64,000 nt of DNA, from the sequence record MW748999.1; one strand, written 5' to 3'. Source of the DNA: Escherichia phage vB_EcoM_Skers. This document shows positions 3,459 to 41,297 of this stretch, one piece after another (position 1 is the stretch's first letter; the number at the start of each line of letters is the position of its first letter). The translations under genes and the position numbers were made by a program. The notes below the pieces were generated by a model. That model made no database searches, had not been told where the DNA came from, and saw only the letters and a program-made list of their open reading frames with translations.

Positions 3459-3716
3459 TTAATTAAAATCTTCTTTGTCCATCTCTGCGTAAATTACATC
3501 CCACGCCCATAAATCAATAAACGCATTATATGTCACGGTGCAATCGTTGTCAATCACTTCTTTCGCATATTTCTTGATGTTTTCGTAGGAAACTTGCGGA
3601 TCAATTTTGTGTTTACGAAGATGCGCATATTCATACCTCAAACACTCCATAAACAGGTCCATCGATTTCTTTTCTCGATGACACTTGGCGATCATAAAAT
3701 CAAAACTTCGACTCAT
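3459..3716 (-). CDS. hypothetical protein (rIIA.1 position)
   Basis: 85-aa ORF in the minus-strand gene train; synteny only. Confidence 0.4.
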   Translation of the reverse strand: MSRSFDFMIAKCHREKKSMDLFMECLRYEYAHLRKHKIDPQVSYENIKKYAKEVIDNDCTVTYNAFIDLWAWDVIYAEMDKEDFN

Positions 3717-3726
3717 TTTCTACTCC

Positions 3727-3921
3727 TTATACATTTTCAATCACCCATTGCAGATGGGCTTCTGCGTCAACCAGTTCAGCGCGGCTTTTCTCTAAGCACT
3801 TGCTGTATTCTTTACGTTCCCACTCGGCAATTTCGTTTTTCAGGACTTCTTCATAGTAAGCAATTACGCCTTTCAGATCGGAAACTTTACGGCTTGCCAG
3901 TTCGATGTAATGGTTACGCAT
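3727..3921 (-). CDS. hypothetical small protein
   Basis: 64-aa minus-strand ORF, tight spacing with neighbours. Confidence 0.3.
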   Translation of the reverse strand: MRNHYIELASRKVSDLKGVIAYYEEVLKNEIAEWERKEYSKCLEKSRAELVDAEAHLQWVIENV

Positions 3922-4117
3922 TTTGATTCTCCTTTGTTACTAGATAACGAATTTGGTCTTGCATTGCAATCAGTTCCCAGCGTGCTACTTTCATCATAGA
4001 AACCGACTCTTTGAACATAATATTAGCTTTTTCCTTATCCCCTGTCAAGTAGATTTCTGCAATTTTTTCACAAAATTTTTGAGTTTCTTCATTCTTAAAC
4101 GGTTTCATATAAGTCAA
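3914..4117 (-). CDS. hypothetical small protein
   Basis: 67-aa minus-strand ORF overlapping neighbour by 8 nt. Confidence 0.3.
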   Translation of the reverse strand: MTYMKPFKNEETQKFCEKIAEIYLTGDKEKANIMFKESVSMMKVARWELIAMQDQIRYLVTKENQNA

Positions 4118-4174
4118 CCTTTTGTTTTCGATGGGGATATTATGATATATCCCCGATCCGGTGTCAACAGATTT

Positions 4175-4474
4175 TTAATCTTTTTTCAGTGCATCCATTA
4201 CTCGCTCTGCGATCAGTTCTCTTAAGCACTGATAACCATGATATTTGATGGCAATGTCACGCAGATCATTAACCAGTTCCCGTACTTCATGGTCTTTCAG
4301 ATCGTCTCTGTATTTCGATTTAATCGTATCTTTAGGTGGATTGCGGATAACCTGAAAACCTTGTTCTGCAATCACTGCGGCTTCTCGCTGGCGTTCATGC
4401 TGTACTGTATTTTTGATCAGGTCTGCTTCCATGAACTTTGCCACACTCATCATCATGTTATTCTTTTTGCTCAT
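4175..4474 (-). CDS. hypothetical protein (start at MSKKN, shorter than track ORF)
   Basis: GAGGA SD 7 nt upstream of ATG at 4474; track ORF 4175..4555 has an N-terminal extension running through the promoter. Confidence 0.4.
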   Translation of the reverse strand: MSKKNNMMMSVAKFMEADLIKNTVQHERQREAAVIAEQGFQVIRNPPKDTIKSKYRDDLKDHEVRELVNDLRDIAIKYHGYQCLRELIAERVMDALKKD

Positions 4475-4508
4475 CGTTAAATCCTCATAAAAGAAAAGGG
4501 AGACTCCC

Positions 4509-4536
4509 ATTATAGAGAATCTCCCTTGTATGTCAA
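4509..4536 (-). promoter_or_regulatory. sigma70-type early promoter (TTGACA-16-TATAAT) with flanking inverted repeat
   Basis: Reverse complement reads TTGACAtacaagggagattctcTATAAT; GGGAGA/TCTCCC arms bracket the -10. Confidence 0.45.
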
Positions 4537-4539
4537 GTG

Positions 4540-6363
4540 TTATGATTGCATCCAAATTTTGCGTTGATCTGCATCTTCACTATAGAGCAAATCGAATAGC
4601 TCTTTATAGTTTTCCGGTAACGTGATGATCTCCATTACAGGATCGTTGATCACGCGATGATAATCTGATTCTGTAAGCGATGCTAACCCTTTGATATATC
4701 GAATGTTGTAACCTTTGATATTATCTCGGTCGTTCTCGAAATCTTCTAGGTCATAATACCATCGAACATCATCACCTTTCTTTGGTTCCGCAATGATAAT
4801 AGGTGTTTTGATAAACCGGATTCGACCATCTTCGAACAATTCAGGCCAACGAGCAAAGAAAGAGATCAGACTAGGCTTAATAGACCCGATCCCGTCGGTA
4901 TCAGCGTCTGTCATAATCGCAATATTTTTGTATTGCATAACTTCCAATGCATCAACACCAAATTGCAAACCAGTGATCGCCATGATGTTAAAAATTTCAG
5001 CGTTCTTAACGATCTTTGCCTCCGGTTGTTCCCACGTTGTAAGAGTTTTGCCTCGCAACGGGAAACCGCCATGTAAATCTTGATCACGTACAGAGATCAG
5101 ATAGTTGATCGCGGAATCACCTTCCGTCAAAAACAGGGTAGTTTCTGCGTCAGTTCCAATAAGGTTAGCTTTAACGTGCTTTGCTACCTTAGCCCGTTTT
5201 GCTGCCTTTGCTGCCTTAGTCGCTGCCGCTTTATCTGCTGCCTCTTTGCGTGCCAGGACTACAGCAATAATAGGCATGATAATGTTTTCTTTCTTCGCAA
5301 TGACTTTAGCCAGCTTTTTAAAATCAAGATCAATATGACGCTTGATATCACCAGTCGGGTTAGTCAAGCGTTCTTTTGTCTGTGAATCAAAACGAAGGTT
5401 AGGCAATTCACGAACAATAAGAATACAGGTCAATCCAGATTTAACCGCAGCTTTAGTAACATCAACCTTATATTCTTTTTTGATTCGTTTTACAATCTCT
5501 TCACAAAGATCATCTGTCACATAATCAACGTGTGTTCCCCCGTTTTTGGTAAACAGACCGTTAGCAAAGGATACTGATTTAAAACCTTCTCCCTCGACCG
5601 CCGGAACGAGGGCAAGTGAAAAGTTTTTATCTTCAATGACAAACGGATCATCATTGTATAGTTTGGCATAATCCTTGAACTTGCTGGTTATCTTTTTGCC
5701 ATTAAACTTAAACGTGATCTTAGGAAAGATTACACTCAATGAATACATTCGATCGCAAATCACATCTGAAATTTCTTGTGACATGATCATACCTTCAAAA
5801 TGATCGAAATCGGGGCAGAACGTAACCTTAGTTCCTTTCAGTTTTGACGGCTTAGATGACCAGCTAATATTTTCTGCACCATTGGTACATTGAACGGTCA
5901 GTTCATTCTCTCCGTCACACGTCACACCAGTAAACCAGGACGAGAAAAATGATGTGAGCGCGCTTCCGATCCCATTCATACCCATAGTAACACGATTTGT
6001 ATCATCAAAGTTAGACCCTGCTTTAGCTCGTGTCCATGCAGCAACTGGTTGTGGAATCTGTTTCCCCTCTGGCGTCGTAACAATATGTTGCGGAATACCG
6101 CGACCATTATCTGTTACTGACACAATGTTATCTTTTATATCCACACTAATAACATTAGCGTACTCAAAATTAGTGCGGATCGCCTCGTCTACCGAGTTGT
6201 CGATGATCTCATCAATGATTTTAACCAGTCCAGGAACGTATGAAACTTTGGTCCATTTTCCAAATAGGAAACGATTGTGTGATTCATAAGTCGTTGACCC
6301 GATGTACATTGAAGGTCTCTTAAGACAGTGAGCGCGATCATCTAACAGCAAAAATTCAGACAT
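4540..6363 (-). CDS. 39: DNA topoisomerase II large subunit, unsplit (T4 gene 39 plus gene 60 equivalent in one ORF)
   Basis: 607 aa; N-terminus KRPSMYIGS..FGKW..YVPGLVKIIDEIIDNSVDEAIRT (GHKL ATPase) and C-terminal Toprim motif IAIMTDADTDG. Confidence 0.9.
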   Translation of the reverse strand: MSEFLLLDDRAHCLKRPSMYIGSTTYESHNRFLFGKWTKVSYVPGLVKIIDEIIDNSVDEAIRTNFEYANVISVDIKDNIVSVTDNGRGIPQHIVTTPEGKQIPQPVAAWTRAKAGSNFDDTNRVTMGMNGIGSALTSFFSSWFTGVTCDGENELTVQCTNGAENISWSSKPSKLKGTKVTFCPDFDHFEGMIMSQEISDVICDRMYSLSVIFPKITFKFNGKKITSKFKDYAKLYNDDPFVIEDKNFSLALVPAVEGEGFKSVSFANGLFTKNGGTHVDYVTDDLCEEIVKRIKKEYKVDVTKAAVKSGLTCILIVRELPNLRFDSQTKERLTNPTGDIKRHIDLDFKKLAKVIAKKENIIMPIIAVVLARKEAADKAAATKAAKAAKRAKVAKHVKANLIGTDAETTLFLTEGDSAINYLISVRDQDLHGGFPLRGKTLTTWEQPEAKIVKNAEIFNIMAITGLQFGVDALEVMQYKNIAIMTDADTDGIGSIKPSLISFFARWPELFEDGRIRFIKTPIIIAEPKKGDDVRWYYDLEDFENDRDNIKGYNIRYIKGLASLTESDYHRVINDPVMEIITLPENYKELFDLLYSEDADQRKIWMQS

Positions 6364-6369
6364 ATTATA

Positions 6370-7128
6370 TCATTCTCCGTCAGTTCGTTTCAGGTATTCC
6401 AATGCCGCATATAATCTTTGAGGATCGTCTTTGAACATCCCTAATCCGGCATTACATTTTCCACAAAGAACACCTCTTATCTTACCAGTCTTATGATTAT
6501 GGTCAAGATGTTTCCACTTTTGGCGTTTTCTCTCGCCGCATCGTTCATTTATGAATTTTACACCGCATATCTCGCAATTGTCAACTCTGCCTAAAATTTC
6601 TAACGCTTCTCTTTTTGATATTTTTATACCATTTTCGGCATGATGATATGGCCTATCTAGTTCTCGCTCTCGCTTCTCAAACAATCGACACTCATCAGAA
6701 CAATACTTTTGAGATGCGTTTATTGCAACAAATGGTTTACCACATTTAGCGCATTCTCGTTCAATCTTTATGTTTTGTGCCTGGTCCAACGATGCGCAAC
6801 GAGAACAGCAAAATTTATGATAGCCTCTAGAGTATGTATGATAATTTACAGGATTTGGGCATCTTGCACACTTAACTATTCCTGTTATTCCGTGGCGCAA
6901 TCTATAAACAGCCTCGTTATATGGTTGTTGATTTCTGAGACCTCCATTACAGAACTTAAACTCATTCCTTATAATCTGAAATTCCGCAGGATACAATTTT
7001 TCCATTTCTGGAATTTTATTTTCTTTAAAAAGATTTGAGTTTAGTCTATTTCCGCTTTTCGCCTCCAGAACATCAACAATAAACTTTTTGATGTTCACTT
7101 TTCTCTCTCCAATACATAACATAACCAT
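6370..7128 (-). CDS. HNH endonuclease of the endonuclease VII type with N-terminal zinc ribbons (putative free-standing homing endonuclease); start uncertain
   Basis: C-terminus CEICGVKF..WKHLDHNHKTGKIRGVLCGKCNAGLG resembles the EndoVII/gp49 catalytic motif (compare gp49 at 40824: HLDHDHDL..GRVRGLLHSCCN); several CxxC pairs upstream. Confidence 0.55.
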   Translation of the reverse strand: MVMLCIGERKVNIKKFIVDVLEAKSGNRLNSNLFKENKIPEMEKLYPAEFQIIRNEFKFCNGGLRNQQPYNEAVYRLRHGITGIVKCARCPNPVNYHTYSRGYHKFCCSRCASLDQAQNIKIERECAKCGKPFVAINASQKYCSDECRLFEKRERELDRPYHHAENGIKISKREALEILGRVDNCEICGVKFINERCGERKRQKWKHLDHNHKTGKIRGVLCGKCNAGLGMFKDDPQRLYAALEYLKRTDGE

Positions 7129-7200
7129 AACTTACTGCAACCGCCACAAAGACGGCTGCAACAATCATATTAAAAATTGAGTGATTGTCAAGTATATGAC

Positions 7201-7373
7201 TCATGACACGCGCACATTTTTATCATAGTACCCGCCATTAATCCCGCGCGGGGCAGTTAATCCCTGTTTGCATTCTTTACCACATTCAGGGCATTCTGCC
7301 TTTTCACGCTCGGAAATTTTGCGGATTTTCTGAAATTGACCGTGTTCTTCACAAGAATAATCGTATAATGGCA
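7201..7373 (-). CDS. FmdB-like zinc-ribbon small protein (start at MPLYDY)
   Basis: MPLYDYSCEEHGQF...ECPECGKE matches the FmdB-family zinc ribbon pattern; AGGGGA SD upstream of ATG at 7373. Confidence 0.4.
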
Positions 7374-7375
7374 TA

Positions 7376-8044
7376 TTATCCCCTTTGTTTCTTAACTGAA
7401 TTTGGATCTGGATTTTCTGGTAGGTCTTCCAGACCCATAGCATAACGTTGTGCATAGATTAGCATAAGAATATCGCGAGCGCAATCATGAATTGCATCAT
7501 GTGCGATAAAACCATCTAGCGTACCCATTGGTAACGGACACTCACACATCCCGCGATGCATCAATGTACGCTCAATGGCGGTGCGAACATCTCGGATATT
7601 CCAGAATCGCACAGGTTCAAGGCTGAACGTCTCTCGTGTATTGTGTGCACGGCGGATCATATCAACTAGTAACGGAATATCAAACGCATTACCGCGTGAC
7701 CACAATACGGATTTAACCGGATCTACTCCTACGGCTTCACAGAATGCGTTAAAACGCGCTAAACCTTCTTTAGTTGATACTTCCGTACCATTTGTGATTA
7801 ATTGCTTTCTCATGCCTTCTGAGGCGGTATTCTTCCACCATTCAACCACACCATGATCAAACACCCTTACACCTTTCTGGGAAGGAATATCAAATTTTAC
7901 CAGAAAGGAATTGTCCACCAGTTCTTTAAATGTAGGTGGATTGTGCGGATCTTCTTTAAATCCGATTGCCGCCATATTGATCACCGCCCCATCAGGCGGA
8001 TAACCTAAACTTTCAAAGTCAATCATTAAATCCACTGGAAGCAT
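7376..8044 (-). CDS. dexA: exonuclease A (DnaQ-like 3'-5' exonuclease)
   Basis: Starts MLPVDLMIDFESLG (DxE exonuclease motif); GGAGGA SD upstream of ATG at 8044; position between gene 39 region and dda as in T4. Confidence 0.7.
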   Translation of the reverse strand: MLPVDLMIDFESLGYPPDGAVINMAAIGFKEDPHNPPTFKELVDNSFLVKFDIPSQKGVRVFDHGVVEWWKNTASEGMRKQLITNGTEVSTKEGLARFNAFCEAVGVDPVKSVLWSRGNAFDIPLLVDMIRRAHNTRETFSLEPVRFWNIRDVRTAIERTLMHRGMCECPLPMGTLDGFIAHDAIHDCARDILMLIYAQRYAMGLEDLPENPDPNSVKKQRG

Positions 8045-8045
8045 T

Positions 8046-8288
8046 TTAAATATCCTCCGCGATATGCCGGAACAACTCCAGATCGTTTTTATCCAGAATG
8101 AAACCGCTACAATCAATAATCCCGTTACCGTAATTATCGGTTAACAGTCGGTCCGTTGCCATGTATGCGCGTACTTTGTTGTTAAAATTCATTACATGTT
8201 GTGCATAGTCACAATGAATCTTTTGACGGTTCCACGCGACAATTGATTGTAGATGTATTACATTAGCCATATTATTAATAACAACCAT
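8046..8288 (-). CDS. hypothetical small protein (dexA.x position)
   Basis: 80-aa ORF starting MVVINNMANV immediately after stop of upstream ORF (TGATATG junction). Confidence 0.35.
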   Translation of the reverse strand: MVVINNMANVIHLQSIVAWNRQKIHCDYAQHVMNFNNKVRAYMATDRLLTDNYGNGIIDCSGFILDKNDLELFRHIAEDI

Positions 8289-8340
8289 ATCAAAACCCTC
8301 GCTTAGTGGAATGTTCTGGCATTTTATTGATACATACAGC
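8285..8340 (-). repeat. direct repeat copy 1 (~56 bp, spans 3' end of a small gene plus start of the next)
   Basis: ccatatcaaaaccctcgcttagtggaatgttctggcattttattgatacatacagc is ~85% identical to 8463-8518. Confidence 0.5.
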
Positions 8341-8466
8341 TTGGTAGTCACGAGATTTTTTTGACGAATTAAGAGCTACAGCCAAAAAATCCTGTAACTG
8401 TTCGTTTGTCATTTTTGGCTTACACCGCGTATCTAAACCCTTCGTTCTTCTAGCTTCATTAGCCAT
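8290..8466 (-). CDS. hypothetical small protein (58 aa)
   Basis: ORF MANEARR...CINKMPEHSTKRGF; C-terminal 14 aa paralogous to the next small ORF. Confidence 0.35.
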   Translation of the reverse strand: MANEARRTKGLDTRCKPKMTNEQLQDFLAVALNSSKKSRDYQAVCINKMPEHSTKRGF

Positions 8467-8518
8467 ATCAAAAACCTCGCTTAGTGAAATGCTCGATCAT
8501 TTTATTGATACATGCAGC
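8463..8518 (-). repeat. direct repeat copy 2
   Basis: ccatatcaaaaacctcgcttagtgaaatgctcgatcattttattgatacatgcagc, partner of 8285-8340. Confidence 0.5.
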
Positions 8519-8635
8519 TTCACTATCGCCGGACACGTTCCAGCCGTATAGACCCCATCTAAAGCACATGGTAACAGTTCCATTGTGACGGCTTACCGTC
8601 ACATCATTAAATTCTGGGATACTTCGCATAATCAT
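8468..8635 (-). CDS. hypothetical small protein (55 aa)
   Basis: ORF MIMRSIPEF...CINKMIEHFTKRGF with GAGGAA SD. Confidence 0.35.
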   Translation of the reverse strand: MIMRSIPEFNDVTVSRHNGTVTMCFRWGLYGWNVSGDSEAACINKMIEHFTKRGF

Positions 8636-8645
8636 AATAATTTCC

Positions 8646-10037
8646 TCAAATATAGTCTACTCGATACCGCGCACGGGTAACACCCACATATAATAACTGC
8701 ATTGCCAATTCAAAGTCAACATTGTCTGTACACATGCAAGGAGTATACAGGAACACGCGGTCTACGCTGATCCCTTGTGACTTATGAATGGTGCAAGCTG
8801 GTAATGCTTTTACATTCAAGAACATACGCTTCATCGTCCAGAAGGAATCCCAATCTGGTTTAAATTTTGGATTCTCTTTCTTCATTTCGCGATATTGTCC
8901 GGCGACCGTATTCAGATAGATAGAGAAAATGTTCTTCTGACGTTGTTCTGTCAGAATGTTGATTTCTACTAAATCTGGTTTATCTGTAGTGATTCCGACT
9001 GCATCTAAACCGACTTTCTGATTTAGGATTTCTTTGTCTTCGTCATCATCGACGCTTTCCACTTTCAGAGTATAGCCTAAAACTGGTTGCGGATCTACCC
9101 CCGTGCAACGTAATGTAAATTCGCGCGGGATGACCTCTTTAACTCGGATCATCTCACCATTGTTAAAAATAACATTGGGAATCTTCTTCCCGCGTTCATC
9201 TCGCAGATATTCGATCAATGGTTCCTGAGTAACCAGAATTTCATCTACAATCACTGGTTCATCGGTGTTATAAACGCGCTTACGCACAATTTCATTGAGT
9301 TTTTCGACGCTCTTGTTAGTGTAGGCCAGAATACGGTTTTCTAGCAGGTCTTCCGGCGTTTTAACGGTTTCGAAATAATGCTTCATAAACTCCGGCAGAG
9401 TTGAGCTATGGAATACACCCTCGTTGCCGCACTGCTTTTCGAATACCCATTTACCATTACGGACAGCGGTCGCCACATCAATGATCGGTGCATTAGATCG
9501 TTTAATTTCTGTCAACTCCACGTTTTGAAAATTTTCATCCGTGAAGAAAGGAGAGATCGACGTTGCACCGCTCGGATCAACTGGTCGTAACTGGTGCGGA
9601 TCGCCAACTGCAATAACAACAATTCGACCGTTGATACTCTTCATGAGAATATCAAATAGTTTCTTATCGACCATACTCGCTTCATCAACAATGATGATCT
9701 GAACATCATCTAGCTTAGGAGTATCTTTTTGTTCAAATACTTGAGTATCTTCATAGTTGGTTGGATTTAGTCGCAGTAGTGCATGTAAAGTAAATGCTTG
9801 ACGACCTACCGCCTTACTCAAAACTTTTTTAGCCTGGTGGGTAGGCGTTGCCAAAACCACACCAGTTACACCACGGCGGACCATTTCCTGAACAATGAAT
9901 TTCATCATTGCGGTTTTACCAGTACCCGCCGCACCACGGACAGTTGTATGCTTCTTTTGTTCAATACGTTTCATTAGAACATCAAAAGCATGTTTTTGCC
10001 CGTCTGTTAACATATCGAAAGTTAATACTCTGCTCAT
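8646..10037 (-). CDS. dda: Dda DNA helicase (SF1)
   Basis: 463 aa; Walker A GAAGTGKT, DEASMVD motif II; N-terminus LTDGQKHAF like T4 Dda. Confidence 0.85.
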   Translation of the reverse strand: MSRVLTFDMLTDGQKHAFDVLMKRIEQKKHTTVRGAAGTGKTAMMKFIVQEMVRRGVTGVVLATPTHQAKKVLSKAVGRQAFTLHALLRLNPTNYEDTQVFEQKDTPKLDDVQIIIVDEASMVDKKLFDILMKSINGRIVVIAVGDPHQLRPVDPSGATSISPFFTDENFQNVELTEIKRSNAPIIDVATAVRNGKWVFEKQCGNEGVFHSSTLPEFMKHYFETVKTPEDLLENRILAYTNKSVEKLNEIVRKRVYNTDEPVIVDEILVTQEPLIEYLRDERGKKIPNVIFNNGEMIRVKEVIPREFTLRCTGVDPQPVLGYTLKVESVDDDEDKEILNQKVGLDAVGITTDKPDLVEINILTEQRQKNIFSIYLNTVAGQYREMKKENPKFKPDWDSFWTMKRMFLNVKALPACTIHKSQGISVDRVFLYTPCMCTDNVDFELAMQLLYVGVTRARYRVDYI

Positions 10038-40823: not shown

Positions 40824-41297
40824 CTATCTTAATCTTTGTATAAATTGTTTCTTATACTTCTTCGTGATCTCTTCTCTTGTATCAGCGTCGCAGTAATCGA
40901 AACCTTCTGCGTCCATAATAGCAACCATCTCCGCGCGTGTCAAGCGTGAAAATCGTTTTACTTTATCAACAGCATATTGAGGATGTAAATGGTTGTTGGT
41001 GTAATCTCCTTTGATGTAATTAACATAGTTTGTAGCCCAAACAACGAAATCAGCACCTAAAGCACCAACACCAAACCGCTTAAAGTCTCCGGTCAACGAT
41101 CCTTCTAGGCGGTTGCAACACGAATGAAGCAATCCCCTTACGCGGCCTTGCCCTTTCCCATCTAGATCGTGGTCATGGTCAAGATGGTTTTTGCTCATAT
41201 CCTCAAAAAGTGGCAATTGACAAAGGGGGCAAATGCCCCCCTGTTTTTCGAATAGTTCTTGTTTGTACTCTTTAGCACTCTTAGCAGTCAGTAACAT
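40824..41297 (-). CDS. 49: endonuclease VII (Holliday-junction resolvase); start at MLLTAK
   Basis: CPLCQ...NHLDHDHDLDGKGQGRVRGLLHSCCN matches the T4 gp49 catalytic/zinc motif. Confidence 0.8.
   Translation of the reverse strand: MLLTAKSAKEYKQELFEKQGGICPLCQLPLFEDMSKNHLDHDHDLDGKGQGRVRGLLHSCCNRLEGSLTGDFKRFGVGALGADFVVWATNYVNYIKGDYTNNHLHPQYAVDKVKRFSRLTRAEMVAIMDAEGFDYCDADTREEITKKYKKQFIQRLR

What the first reader, a model, noticed from the sequence alone, without database searches (positions are those of the whole stretch)
6370..7128. Free-standing EndoVII-type HNH endonuclease beside an unsplit topoisomerase gene 39
The ORF ends with a motif very close to the gp49 catalytic core (HLDHNH..G.IRGVLC..CN), preceded by zinc-ribbon-like Cys pairs, the typical architecture of phage homing endonucleases. 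It sits immediately upstream of gene 39, which here is a single 607-aa ORF, whereas T4 has 39 and 60 split with the HNH gene mobA between them. This looks like a homing-endonuclease insertion at the same hotspot without a gene split.
Basis: partly seen in the sequence, partly recalled or inferred. Interest (0 to 1): 0.45.

Follow-up and report, generated by a model that had tools for sequence, protein, structure and literature searches.

The report
Homing endonuclease gene upstream of topoisomerase
This is an ordinary selfish "homing endonuclease" gene of the endonuclease-VII-motif type, wedged just in front of the topoisomerase gene of an RB49-like coliphage; relatives of it sit at the same spot in several other T4-like phage lineages, and a published paper already predicted one of them to be a homing endonuclease.

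Summary
Window 6370-7128 (- strand) is an intact ORF with a C-terminal Endonuclease_7 domain (Pfam E=6e-16), preceded by two CxxC...CxxxC zinc ribbons. It ends 6 nt before an unsplit 607-aa gene 39. The conserved start is probably GTG at 7098 (242 aa).

The ORF is not the phage's Holliday-junction resolvase; that gene (gp49) lies at 40827-41297. It is a free-standing homing endonuclease gene (HEG) of the F-CphI/Hpy99I "DHHRN" clade.
- It is present in 12 of 58 Krischvirus records (about 51 distinct phages).
- Its boundaries are sharp: a 757-nt segment replaces 19 nt of the empty site.
- It is always linked to a foreign first ~700 nt of gene 39 (77% identical to RB49, against 98% for the rest of the gene).
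- Relatives with 36-76% identity occupy the same position in every lineage where context could be read.
- No group I intron is present.

The homolog VR7 gp6 was already predicted to be a free-standing homing endonuclease (Fang et al. 2018). The "same hotspot as T4 mobA" idea is only loosely right. This gene sits at the 5' end of gene 39, about 1.3 kb from the position where T4 splits the gene, and it belongs to a different endonuclease family. Cleavage activity and the target site remain untested.

Verdict: new member of a known kind, of modest interest.

The parts
6370..7098 (-). Homing endonuclease gene from its conserved GTG start (242 aa; stop TGA 6370-6372).
   Evidence: ORF. The GTG after GGAGAGAG is the start annotated in JK32, G5211, FL04, E26 and others. 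It is the only start shared by the other HEG-positive genomes read, except MIZ4. Pfam and PHROG hits. Under purifying selection: pN 0.15 against pS 0.82 versus L012; dN/dS 0.047 for VR26 versus RZ.
7099..7128 (-). Ten extra codons of the mechanical ORF, open only in this phage and JK32. They overlap the 3' end of the small upstream ORF and the SD/A-run of the endonuclease gene.
   Evidence: A4 here against A5 in most HEG-positive genomes; a 2-nt deletion in MIZ4 fuses the two ORFs. The tblastn matches of all records except JK32 start at residue 10.
6388..6582 (-). EndoVII-motif (DHHRN) beta-beta-alpha-Me nuclease domain: CxxC ... DHNH ... R ... CxxCN plus a C-terminal helix.
   Evidence: PF02945 at E=6e-16. 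Hpy99I nuclease domain E=5.6e-9 and T4 EndoVII E=6e-3. Foldseek top hit is Hpy99I. 49% identity over 47 aa to F-CphI. Catalytic and zinc residues are invariant in the family alignment.
6688..6870 (-). Two CxxC...(F/Y)C(C/S)xxC zinc-ribbon (treble-clef-like) units, the presumed DNA-binding modules.
   Evidence: The Cys ligands are conserved in the homologues wherever this region aligns. This unit recurs as tandem repeats in hundreds of unrelated proteins. Some of those proteins hit DUF2116 'treble clef', NinG or zf-MYND, most below Pfam's own cut-offs. The AF2 model shows short beta-hairpins here, at 60-88 pLDDT.
6871..7098 (-). Family-specific N-terminal helical region (about 76 aa), of unknown role; presumably contributes to target recognition.
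   Evidence: Full-length matches to the N-terminal 165 aa are limited to a handful of proteins: P0001, P0012, P0013, P0020, P0021, P0026. Every one whose context could be read sits in front of gene 39. The AF2 model shows helices at low to medium confidence.
6358..7114 (-). The inserted segment relative to the empty site: 757 nt here replace 19 nt (AAGAGGTTTAATAATGAGT) of RB49, Phi1, Delraymugoa and G37-3.
   Evidence: Junction comparison...GTTATGTTATG|TATTGGAGAG...GGAGAATGATATAATATGTCT|GAATTT against ...GTTATGTTATG|AAGAGGTTTAATAATGAGT|GA(A/G)TTT. The same upstream junction is used in the 76%-identical homologue L012.
6364..6378 (-). Replacement ribosome-binding region for gene 39, supplied by the insert: GGAGAA (the last codons of the endonuclease), then TGA, then TATAAT.
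   Evidence: The native AGAGG-N7-ATG of the empty site is lost. All homologues keep a purine-rich SD-like run inside their last codons, just before gene 39. Its function is inferred, not shown.
5684..6363 (-). Foreign 5' tract of gene 39 (ATPase-domain half) that travels with the endonuclease gene. The tract ends between nt 680 and 720 of the gene (window 5644-5684).
   Evidence: The first 240 codons are 77.2% nt identical to RB49, against 98.2% for the remaining 367 codons. A 120-nt probe from the tract is found in exactly 13 records: the 12 HEG-positive ones plus G37-3. Of 145 diagnostic sites, the last is at nt 680, and the end is the same in all ten HEG-positive genomes read.
4540..6363 (-). 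Unsplit gene 39 (topoisomerase II large subunit, 607 aa), chimeric. It is the presumed target gene.
   Evidence: PHROG 543 at E=1e-248; GyrB/HATPase/Toprim Pfam hits. Chimerism shown.
7073..7204 (-). Small hydrophobic ORF (homologue of RB49p006.1) whose 3' end was replaced by the insertion. 43 aa here, 36 aa in most relatives.
   Evidence: PHROG 25974 at E=8e-23. Annotated in RB49 and Phi1. C-terminal variants listed.
40827..41297 (-). The phage's own gp49 (endonuclease VII resolvase) orthologue. Not part of the element, but it shows the element is a second, different EndoVII-motif gene.
   Evidence: Only a 38-aa motif match to the 6370-7098 protein.

Best explanation
The ORF is a free-standing homing endonuclease gene of the EndoVII-motif ('DHHRN', F-CphI/Hpy99I-like) class. 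It is specialised for the 5' end of the topoisomerase II large-subunit gene (gene 39) of T4-like phages.

**Shown**
- It has an intact nuclease domain with all catalytic and zinc residues.
- It is a 757-nt insertion with sharp boundaries between the small ORF 006.1 and gene 39.
- It is present in only a minority of otherwise 92-99% identical Krischviruses.
- It is completely linked to a foreign first ~700 nt of gene 39.
- It is under purifying selection.
- Relatives occupy the same position in every lineage whose context could be read.

**Inferred mechanism**
1. In a mixed infection, the protein binds through its N-terminal region and two zinc ribbons. It then nicks or cuts the endonuclease-less allele in or near the first ~60 bp of gene 39, the DNA encoding the conserved LSDxEHxxKRxGMYIG motif.
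2. T4-type recombination-dependent repair copies the endonuclease gene, together with the adjacent recoded gene 39 sequence, from the donor genome.
3. The recoded 5' tract makes the carrier's own gene 39 immune to cutting.
4. The insert preserves host fitness. It rides the existing transcription unit, starts at a weak GTG coupled to the upstream ORF's stop, and carries a new Shine-Dalgarno sequence for gene 39 inside its last codons.
For: **Domain and clade**
- PF02945 at E=6e-16, located at the C-terminus.
- Best solved relative is the sequence-specific restriction enzyme Hpy99I (E=5.6e-9), ahead of T4 EndoVII (E=6e-3).
- 49% identity to the characterised homing endonuclease F-CphI over the catalytic core, against 37% to the phage's own gp49.
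- A separate gp49 orthologue lies at 40827-41297.

**Polymorphism and junctions**
- Present in 12 of 58 Krischvirus records.
- Exact empty and filled junctions recovered.
- The upstream flank is identical to RB49 for 780 nt, right up to the junction.

**Linkage to the gene 39 tract**
- The foreign gene 39 tract is linked 12/12 to the endonuclease gene.
- On both sides of the block, the nearest relatives of the window are endonuclease-less phages.

**Selection**
- pN/pS 0.15/0.82 against L012; dN/dS 0.047 for VR26 against RZ.

**Same site in other lineages**
- Gaprivervirus VR7, VR26, RZ and TH15, where it is also polymorphic: absent from VR20, VR25 and SP18.
- Metagenomic contigs L011, L012, L025, L026/L027 and L028.

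**Target hint**
- VR7 (with the gene) and VR25 (without) differ at 19 positions in the first 60 nt of gene 39, the last at about nt 57. Only 3 amino acids change, and two Ser codons are recoded TCN to AGC. The two genes are nearly identical afterwards.

**Other**
- No Rfam hit around the gene, so no intron.
- Fang et al. 2018 (PMC6083498) independently predicted VR7 gp6 to be a free-standing homing endonuclease.
Against: - No cleavage assay or mixed-infection data exist for any member of this subfamily. Activity, nick versus double-strand break, and the target site are all inferred.
- All ten HEG-positive Krischviruses examined, and G37-3, share the same distal end of the foreign gene 39 tract. 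The chimera therefore arose once. I found no variable co-conversion endpoints that would prove repeated homing.
- The varied flanking backgrounds could equally result from the very high general recombination of T4-like phages.
- G37-3 carries the linked gene 39 tract without the endonuclease gene. Linkage is therefore not absolute in that direction. This could be loss of the gene, or a pre-existing resistant allele.
- The N-terminal two thirds of the AF2 model are of only moderate confidence.
Confidence: 0.8

Rival explanations
1. It is a decaying or already inactive relic of a homing endonuclease gene. It would be carried along passively because it supplies the ribosome-binding site of gene 39 and cannot be deleted cleanly.
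For: - The chimera has a single origin, with the same tract end in all carriers.
- The junction with the upstream ORF is indel-prone. There are three length variants, and the start context differs between phages.
- One metagenomic homologue (P0003) lacks 62 internal residues.
- T4's own mobA is annotated as defective.
Against: - The reading frame is intact in the ten Krischvirus copies whose DNA I read. tblastn matches the other two end to end, and the distant homologues are intact too.
- All catalytic and zinc ligands are invariant across the full-length homologues.
- Purifying selection is strong.
- The gene persists at 36-76% identity in many lineages, which a dead gene would not do.
Confidence: 0.08
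2. It is a domesticated nuclease that benefits the phage, rather than a purely selfish element. It might exclude competing T4-like phages by cutting their topoisomerase gene, or act with or on the topoisomerase itself.
For: - Long-term retention under purifying selection.
- The constant partnership with gene 39 in every context read.
- The zinc ribbons give weak structural matches to YacG, a zinc-finger inhibitor that binds gyrase (E about 1, so not significant).
Against: - The sporadic distribution within each genus is what a selfish element shows, not a useful core function.
- Marker exclusion is itself the normal by-product of homing, so this reading is hard to separate from the main one.
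- The YacG resemblance is at chance level, and this cysteine pattern is generic.
Confidence: 0.1
3. It is a second Holliday-junction resolvase, a paralogue of gp49 used in recombination or packaging.
For: It shares the Endonuclease_7 catalytic motif and is annotated 'endonuclease VII' or 'recombination endonuclease' in several GenBank records.
Against: - Only about 30-38 residues align to gp49.
- The motif is at the C-terminus, as in the endonuclease clade of Fang et al..
- No alignment extends into the C-terminal part of gp49.
- A bona fide gp49 is present in the window.
- The gene is absent from most Krischviruses.
Confidence: 0.02

Closest known systems
VR7 gp6 (VR7ORF006c) and its VR26/RZ/TH15 homologues in Gaprivervirus. 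Predicted as a free-standing homing endonuclease by Fang et al. 2018 (PMC6083498).
   Same: - Same architecture along the full length: N-terminal region, two zinc ribbons and a C-terminal EndoVII motif, at 40-45% identity.
- Same position directly upstream of an unsplit gene 39.
- Same sporadic distribution within the genus.
   Different: - A different genus outside Tevenvirinae, and a different upstream neighbour (small ORF 006.1 instead of 39.1).
- In Gaprivervirus the ATG abuts a promoter-like TATAAT with no Shine-Dalgarno sequence. Here there is a GGAGAG Shine-Dalgarno sequence, a GTG start and stop/start coupling.
- The length of the linked divergent gene 39 tract differs: about 57 nt in VR7, about 1.1 kb in VR26/RZ, about 0.7 kb here.
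F-CphI of cyanophage S-PM2, the founding and biochemically characterised member of the DHHRN (EndoVII-motif) homing endonuclease family.
   Same: - C-terminal EndoVII catalytic motif with D, H, H, R and N and both Cys pairs.
- 49% identity over the core, including the following helix.
- Encoded by a T4-like phage that uses a different protein as resolvase.
   Different: [quoted passage not shown]
- This protein is 242 aa, with about 170 residues ahead of the nuclease domain that do not align with F-CphI's shorter N-terminal part.
- It sits beside gene 39, and no intron was detected there.
Hpy99I type II restriction endonuclease (PDB 3FC3).
   Same: Closest solved structure and sequence for the nuclease domain (E=5.6e-9; Foldseek E=5e-4). 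It shows that this fold can perform sequence-specific double-strand cleavage.
   Different: Hpy99I is a bacterial restriction enzyme. According to Fang et al. 2018, most of its Helicobacter relatives lie next to a methylase. Its N-terminal DNA-recognition domain is unrelated, and it is not mobile by homing.
T4 MobA (and the Mob family), the HNH homing endonuclease between T4 genes 39 and 60.
   Same: A free-standing beta-beta-alpha-Me endonuclease gene associated with the topoisomerase large-subunit gene of a T4-like phage. It is promoter-less, has a GTG start and overlaps the upstream ORF (review PMC2988022).
   Different: - A different site: the 3' end/split point of gene 39 rather than its 5' end.
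- MobA splits the gene; this element does not.
- The review describes Mob proteins as an HNH domain fused to a C-terminal DNA-binding region. Here the nuclease domain is C-terminal and belongs to PF02945.
- An HNH_3+AP2 endonuclease gene lies at the 3' end of gene 39 in G5211 and G37-3 and is absent from this window. Whether it is related to Mob was not tested.
T4 gp49 endonuclease VII (Holliday-junction resolvase).
   Same: Catalytic motif HLDH(D/N)H...R...CxxCN and the zinc site.
   Different: Only the motif aligns. The motif is N-terminal in gp49 and C-terminal here. gp49 is a core gene, and its orthologue is elsewhere in the window.

Membership tests
DHHRN / EndoVII-motif homing endonucleases (F-CphI family, Fang et al. 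2018) | Conserved CX2-4C ... D-H-x-H ... R ... CX2C-N pattern (T4 EndoVII D40, H41, H43, R54, N62 and the four zinc Cys). | tested here: met
   In 252-aa numbering: C185xxC188, D209, H210, H212, R218, C222xxC225, N226, aligned to T4 EndoVII and Hpy99I. Invariant in the full-length homologues.
DHHRN / EndoVII-motif homing endonucleases (F-CphI family, Fang et al. 2018) | Belongs to the 'endonuclease clade': motif at the C-terminus, and closer to F-CphI/Hpy99I than to resolvases. | tested here: met
   Motif at aa 183-247 of 252. Hpy99I E=5.6e-9 against EndoVII E=6e-3. F-CphI 49% over 47 aa, E=5e-12, against own gp49 37% over 38 aa, E=4e-4. No tree was built.
DHHRN / EndoVII-motif homing endonucleases (F-CphI family, Fang et al. 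2018) | The genome has another protein serving as Holliday-junction resolvase. | tested here: met
   gp49 orthologue at 40827-41297, 44.6% identical to T4 gp49 over 157 aa.
DHHRN / EndoVII-motif homing endonucleases (F-CphI family, Fang et al. 2018) | Site-specific DNA cleavage that depends on the D/H catalytic residues. | not testable with these tools
   Needs purified protein and substrate DNA.
Free-standing homing endonuclease gene (functional class, as in T4 seg/mob genes) | Presence/absence polymorphism at one precise site among closely related genomes, with homologous flanks. | tested here: met
   12 of 58 Krischvirus records carry it. Junctions are identical in the ten filled genomes read, apart from short indels next to the upstream junction, and in the four empty genomes read. 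The same holds in Gaprivervirus.
Free-standing homing endonuclease gene (functional class, as in T4 seg/mob genes) | Not inside an intron or intein. | tested here: met
   No Rfam match at E<=1 in 3500-9000. The ORF lies between two ORFs, and gene 39 is continuous.
Free-standing homing endonuclease gene (functional class, as in T4 seg/mob genes) | Flanking sequence co-inherited with the gene (co-conversion), and a variant, presumably uncleavable, target in the carrier. | tested here: inconclusive
   There is complete linkage to a 77%-identical first ~700 nt of gene 39, and a recoded first 57 nt in VR7 compared with VR25. However, the tract end is the same in all carriers, so repeated conversion events are not demonstrated, and resistance to cleavage is untested.
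Free-standing homing endonuclease gene (functional class, as in T4 seg/mob genes) | Super-Mendelian inheritance in mixed infection, dependent on the nuclease. | not testable with these tools
   Needs phage crosses.
T4 Mob family (MobA-E) | [quoted passage not shown] | tested here: not met
   The nuclease domain is C-terminal and hits PF02945, not HNH_3. An HNH_3+AP2 gene is found in G5211, not here. T4 MobA itself was not scanned.
T4 Mob family (MobA-E) | MobA position: between the two halves (39 and 60) of a split topoisomerase gene. | tested here: not met
   Here the gene lies upstream of the start codon of an unsplit gene 39.
Endonuclease VII resolvase (T4 gp49 orthologues) | Alignment along the whole of gp49 (N-terminal catalytic domain plus the C-terminal part), and conservation as a core gene. 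| tested here: not met
   Only about 30-38 residues align. The gene is absent from most Krischviruses.

The most novel reading that the evidence does not exclude
This is a topoisomerase-dedicated endonuclease lineage. It recognises the DNA that encodes the near-universal N-terminal GHKL motif (LSDxEHxxKRxGMYIG) of type IIA topoisomerase ATPase subunits, and it travels as a two-part cassette: the nuclease gene plus a recoded, cleavage-immune 5' piece of gene 39. On this reading it has repeatedly driven replacement of the topoisomerase ATPase-domain half between distantly related T4-like phages of different genera. It would then be a motor of modular exchange in an essential replication enzyme, rather than a passive passenger.
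Probability: 0.3. Interest if true: 0.5.

Novelty: new member of a known kind. Interest (0 to 1): 0.3.

Why it matters
It adds a well-documented case to the small EndoVII-motif (DHHRN) homing endonuclease family, which has only one biochemically characterised member (F-CphI).

The system is easy to test:
- Near-isogenic coliphages exist with the gene, without it, and with the linked gene 39 allele but no endonuclease (G37-3).
- All of them grow on laboratory E. coli.

It also shows that the start of the topoisomerase gene is a landing site shared by unrelated endonuclease families, and that carriers of this gene have a chimeric topoisomerase ATPase domain.

For genome annotation, records that label this ORF 'endonuclease VII' or 'recombination endonuclease' give a misleading product name. 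The true gp49 is a different gene.

Tried and rejected
- **Resolvase reading:** rejected, because a full-length gp49 orthologue lies elsewhere in the window.
- **Intron-encoded endonuclease:** rejected. There is no Rfam hit at E<=1 in 3500-9000, and gene 39 is one continuous ORF.
- **Window is Shigella phage JK32:** rejected. The endonuclease protein is identical, but the flanks are only 97-98% identical to JK32 and are closer to phages without the gene.
- **Variable co-conversion tract ends as proof of repeated homing:** not found. The end is the same in all carriers.
- **RNA hairpin hiding the endonuclease's ribosome-binding site:** none beyond chance (z = -0.59).
- **Promoter scan:** 11 sites against 7.8 +/- 2.7 expected, so uninformative as a whole.
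- **Fold search of the whole model:** only the Hpy99I hit is significant. The zinc-finger and YacG hits have E about 1.
- **IMG/VR scan for more family members:** only VR26 itself came back as a full-length relative.
- **Literature searches:** searches for VR7ORF006c and for Krischvirus homing endonucleases found no paper with either in its title or abstract; the full texts were not read.
Full report
**1. Observation**

The - strand ORF 6370..7128 (252 aa) exists.
- Its last 65 residues match Pfam Endonuclease_7 (PF02945) at E=6.1e-16, 58.5 bits against a gathering score of 23.6. They also match several PHROG 'endonuclease VII / HNH endonuclease' families.
- Aligned to T4 endonuclease VII and to Hpy99I, the protein has every residue that defines the motif. 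These are C185xxC188, D209, H210, H212, R218, C222xxC225 and N226 in 252-aa numbering.
- Ahead of the motif are two CxxC...CxxxC units: C87/C90/C107-108/C111 and C126/C129/C143/C147. Their cysteines are conserved wherever the homologues align.
- Six bases downstream starts an unsplit 607-aa topoisomerase II large-subunit gene, 4540..6363.

One correction concerns the start codon. The first ten codons are open only in this phage and JK32, because an A-run has four instead of five A's. In the other carriers whose junction I read, except MIZ4, the frame begins at GTG 7098 behind GGAGAGAG, which is the start most GenBank records annotate. In those phages the GTG overlaps the TGA of the small upstream ORF (GTGA).

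**2. Origin of the window**

The window comes from a Krischvirus, the RB49-like T4-type coliphages. It is not identical to any record.
- The endonuclease protein is 100% identical to that of Shigella phage JK32.
- The flanks, however, are closest to phages that lack the gene. G37-3 and Delraymugoa are 99.2-99.3% identical upstream. Sf20, KFS-EC and RB49 are 98.2-98.5% identical in the 3' part of gene 39. JK32 reaches only 97-98% in these flanks.

**3. It is an insertion, and it is polymorphic**

- Twelve of 58 Krischvirus records (about 51 distinct phages) carry the gene: JK32, PHB13, MIZ2-6, JEP8, G5211, G2248, FL04 and E26. RB49, Phi1, GEC-3S, ECD7, Delraymugoa, G37-3 and the rest do not.
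- The empty site reads ...GTTATGTTATG|AAGAGGTTTAATAATGAGT|GA(A/G)TTT. There the small ORF 006.1 overlaps the gene 39 start by 8 nt.
- The filled site reads ...GTTATGTTATG|TATTGGAGAGAGAAAAGTG...GGAGAATGATATAATATGTCT|GAATTT.
- Thus 757 nt (window 6358-7114) replace 19 nt. The native Shine-Dalgarno sequence of gene 39 is lost. A new GGAGAA, formed by the last codons of the endonuclease (..DGE*), takes its place, and Ser codon 2 of gene 39 is recoded from AGT to TCT.
- Upstream of the junction the window is identical to RB49 for 780 nt.

**4. A foreign piece of gene 39 travels with it**

- Downstream of the junction, the first 240 codons of gene 39 are only 77.2% identical (nt) to RB49. The remaining 367 codons are 98.2% identical, and the switch is abrupt.
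- A 120-nt probe from this tract finds exactly 13 records: the 12 carriers plus G37-3.
- Using 145 diagnostic sites, all ten carriers examined, and G37-3, have the foreign allele up to the same last site at nt 680. The chimeric gene therefore arose once. I could not show different co-conversion endpoints.
- The window and JK32 have a short RB49-like patch at about nt 120-180, and E26 and JEP8 carry a more diverged copy.
- G37-3 has the foreign tract but an empty junction. It is either a phage that lost the gene or a sample of a resistant allele.

**5. The same gene family sits at the same place elsewhere**

- Homologues of 40-45% identity lie directly upstream of unsplit gene 39 in Gaprivervirus VR7, VR26, RZ and TH15. 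Other Gapriverviruses (VR20, VR25, SP18 and more) lack them.
- Homologues of 76% (L012), 62% (L011) and about 36-38% (P0020/L025, P0021/L026-27, P0026/L028) were found in metagenomic contigs. In every case the next ORF begins 0-6 nt later, or overlaps by a few bases. Its product starts with the topoisomerase/GyrB N-terminal motif.
- A search of 1.8 billion representatives with the N-terminal 165 residues found only these few full-length relatives. The other hits are to the zinc-ribbon unit, which recurs as tandem repeats in many unrelated proteins.
- The family is under purifying selection: pN/pS is 0.15/0.82 between the window and L012, and dN/dS is 0.047 between VR26 and RZ.

**6. Where it probably cuts**

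This step is inference.
- VR7 (with the gene) and VR25 (without) differ at 19 positions in the first 60 nt of gene 39, the last at about nt 57, and are nearly identical afterwards. Only three amino acids change, and two serine codons are switched from TCN to AGC.
- In the Krischvirus carriers, and in L011 and L012, the same stretch is altered..LSDREHVLKRAGMYIG.. becomes ..LDDRxHxLKRPxMYIG...
- This points to the DNA encoding the conserved N-terminal motif of the ATPase domain, and/or the replaced junction, as the recognition region. The carrier's own copy would be protected by recoding.
- Free-standing T4 endonucleases are known to cut at a distance from their own gene, and to drag the intervening sequence along (review PMC2988022).

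**7. What it is not**

- It is not the resolvase. The gp49 orthologue is at 40827-41297 (44.6% identical to T4 gp49 over 157 aa) and shares only the motif with this protein.
- It is not intron-encoded. No Rfam family matches 3500-9000 even at E<=1.
- It is not a Mob-type gene. Its domain order and Pfam family differ from the Mob description in the review, and its site differs from that of mobA.

**8. Comparison with the known**

- Fang et al. 2018 (PMC6083498) characterised F-CphI of cyanophage S-PM2 and defined the 'DHHRN' family around the EndoVII motif.
- They separated a resolvase clade (motif N-terminal) from an endonuclease clade (motif C-terminal, containing Hpy99I and intron-encoded enzymes).
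- The window's protein is a homologue of VR7 gp6. It is 49% identical to F-CphI across the catalytic core. Its closest solved relative, by sequence and by fold, is Hpy99I.
- The AF2 model (pLDDT 73) is confident mainly in the nuclease domain and the second zinc ribbon.

**9. The 'hotspot' idea**

The insertion is not at the T4 mobA position. That position corresponds to about residue 443 of the fused protein, some 1.3 kb away. Gene 39 is nevertheless a repeated target.
- The same 5' junction holds a GIY-YIG/I-TevI-like gene in Gaprivervirus P479.
- It holds a NUMOD3-containing gene that matches a PHROG 'homing endonuclease' family in the Klebsiella phages Wolf_ER13 and Nispero.
- An HNH_3+AP2 gene follows the stop codon of gene 39 in G5211 and G37-3. 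JSE may carry it too, according to the G5211 annotation note, and about 14 records share those phages' divergent last 28 nt of gene 39.

**10. Verdict**

The element is a new (Krischvirus) member of an already described kind, with a prior published prediction for its Gaprivervirus homologue.

New here:
- the exact junctions;
- the linked chimeric gene 39;
- the family's strict association with the gene 39 start across lineages.

Activity and the target site remain to be shown experimentally.

Noticed in passing
L009:734-1297 (G5211); also L007:734-1297 (G37-3); absent from the window (gene 39 stop at 4540): A second, unrelated endonuclease gene (187 aa, Pfam HNH_3 + AP2) sits directly after the stop codon of gene 39 in some Krischviruses. 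About 14 records share the divergent last 28 nt of gene 39 seen in these two phages. Gene 39 can therefore be bracketed by two different endonuclease genes, as it is in G5211.
   Followed up: partly
L017:2430-3227 (Gaprivervirus P479); L013:1270-2019 and L014:1327-2019 (Klebsiella phages Wolf_ER13 and Nispero): The same 39.1|39 junction carries a GIY-YIG + I-TevI-type DNA-binding endonuclease gene in P479. In the two Klebsiella phages it carries a NUMOD3-containing gene that matches a PHROG 'homing endonuclease' family. Unrelated nuclease families therefore share this landing site.
   Followed up: partly
window 7099-7112 (- strand: GGAGAGAGAAAA before GTG): The (GA)n/A-run between the small ORF and the endonuclease start has three length variants among carriers. 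A5 is the common one and gives a GTGA stop/start overlap. A4 occurs in this window and JK32 and lengthens the small ORF from 36 to 43 aa. A 2-nt deletion in MIZ4 fuses the small membrane ORF to the endonuclease (277 aa). These could be sequencing errors or a real expression switch.
   Followed up: partly
window 5644-6363 and flanks 4540-5640, 7130-9000: The window matches no single database phage. The endonuclease block resembles JK32 and FL04, but both flanks are nearest to phages that lack the gene. The genome is a fine-scale mosaic.
   Followed up: yes
window 8290-8466 and 8468-8635 (- strand): Two adjacent small ORFs (58 and 55 aa) end with the same ..CINKMxEHxTKRGF tail, so they look like a tandem partial duplication. 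RB49 and several other phages lack the 58-aa one (= Phi1 ORF009.1), which is another presence/absence polymorphism.
   Followed up: no
L004:3400-3460, L006:3440-3510, L016:2375-2445 (Gaprivervirus): In Gaprivervirus the endonuclease ATG is created exactly at the junction, 6 nt after a promoter-like TTGCTT-N17-TATAAT that follows the 39.1 terminator hairpin. There is no Shine-Dalgarno sequence (ACCTCC precedes the ATG). The mRNA may be leaderless or poorly translated.
   Followed up: no
window 6555-6584 (- strand), inside the endonuclease ORF: A near-consensus sigma-70-like site (TTGACA-18-TAAAAT, 11 of 12 matches) lies about 190 nt upstream of the gene 39 start. T4 endonuclease genes are known to carry promoters for the downstream gene. 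The scan as a whole was not above chance, however.
   Followed up: no
protein residues 77-137 of the 242-aa form (window 6688-6870): The zinc-ribbon unit gives weak structural matches to YacG, the zinc-finger inhibitor that binds gyrase (4TMA; probability 0.6-0.9 but E about 1). This is curious for a gene next to a GyrB-like gene, but it is at chance level, and the cysteine pattern is generic.
   Followed up: partly
P0003 (ENA contig of 753 nt): A homologue (64% by BLASTP, 91% over the aligned columns) lacks 62 internal residues: the second zinc ribbon and the first CxxC of the nuclease domain. It may be a degenerating copy or an assembly artefact.
   Followed up: no
window 40827-41297 (- strand): This is the genuine gp49 endonuclease VII orthologue of the phage. 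GenBank records that name the 6370-7098 ORF 'endonuclease VII' or 'recombination endonuclease' risk confusing the two genes.
   Followed up: yes
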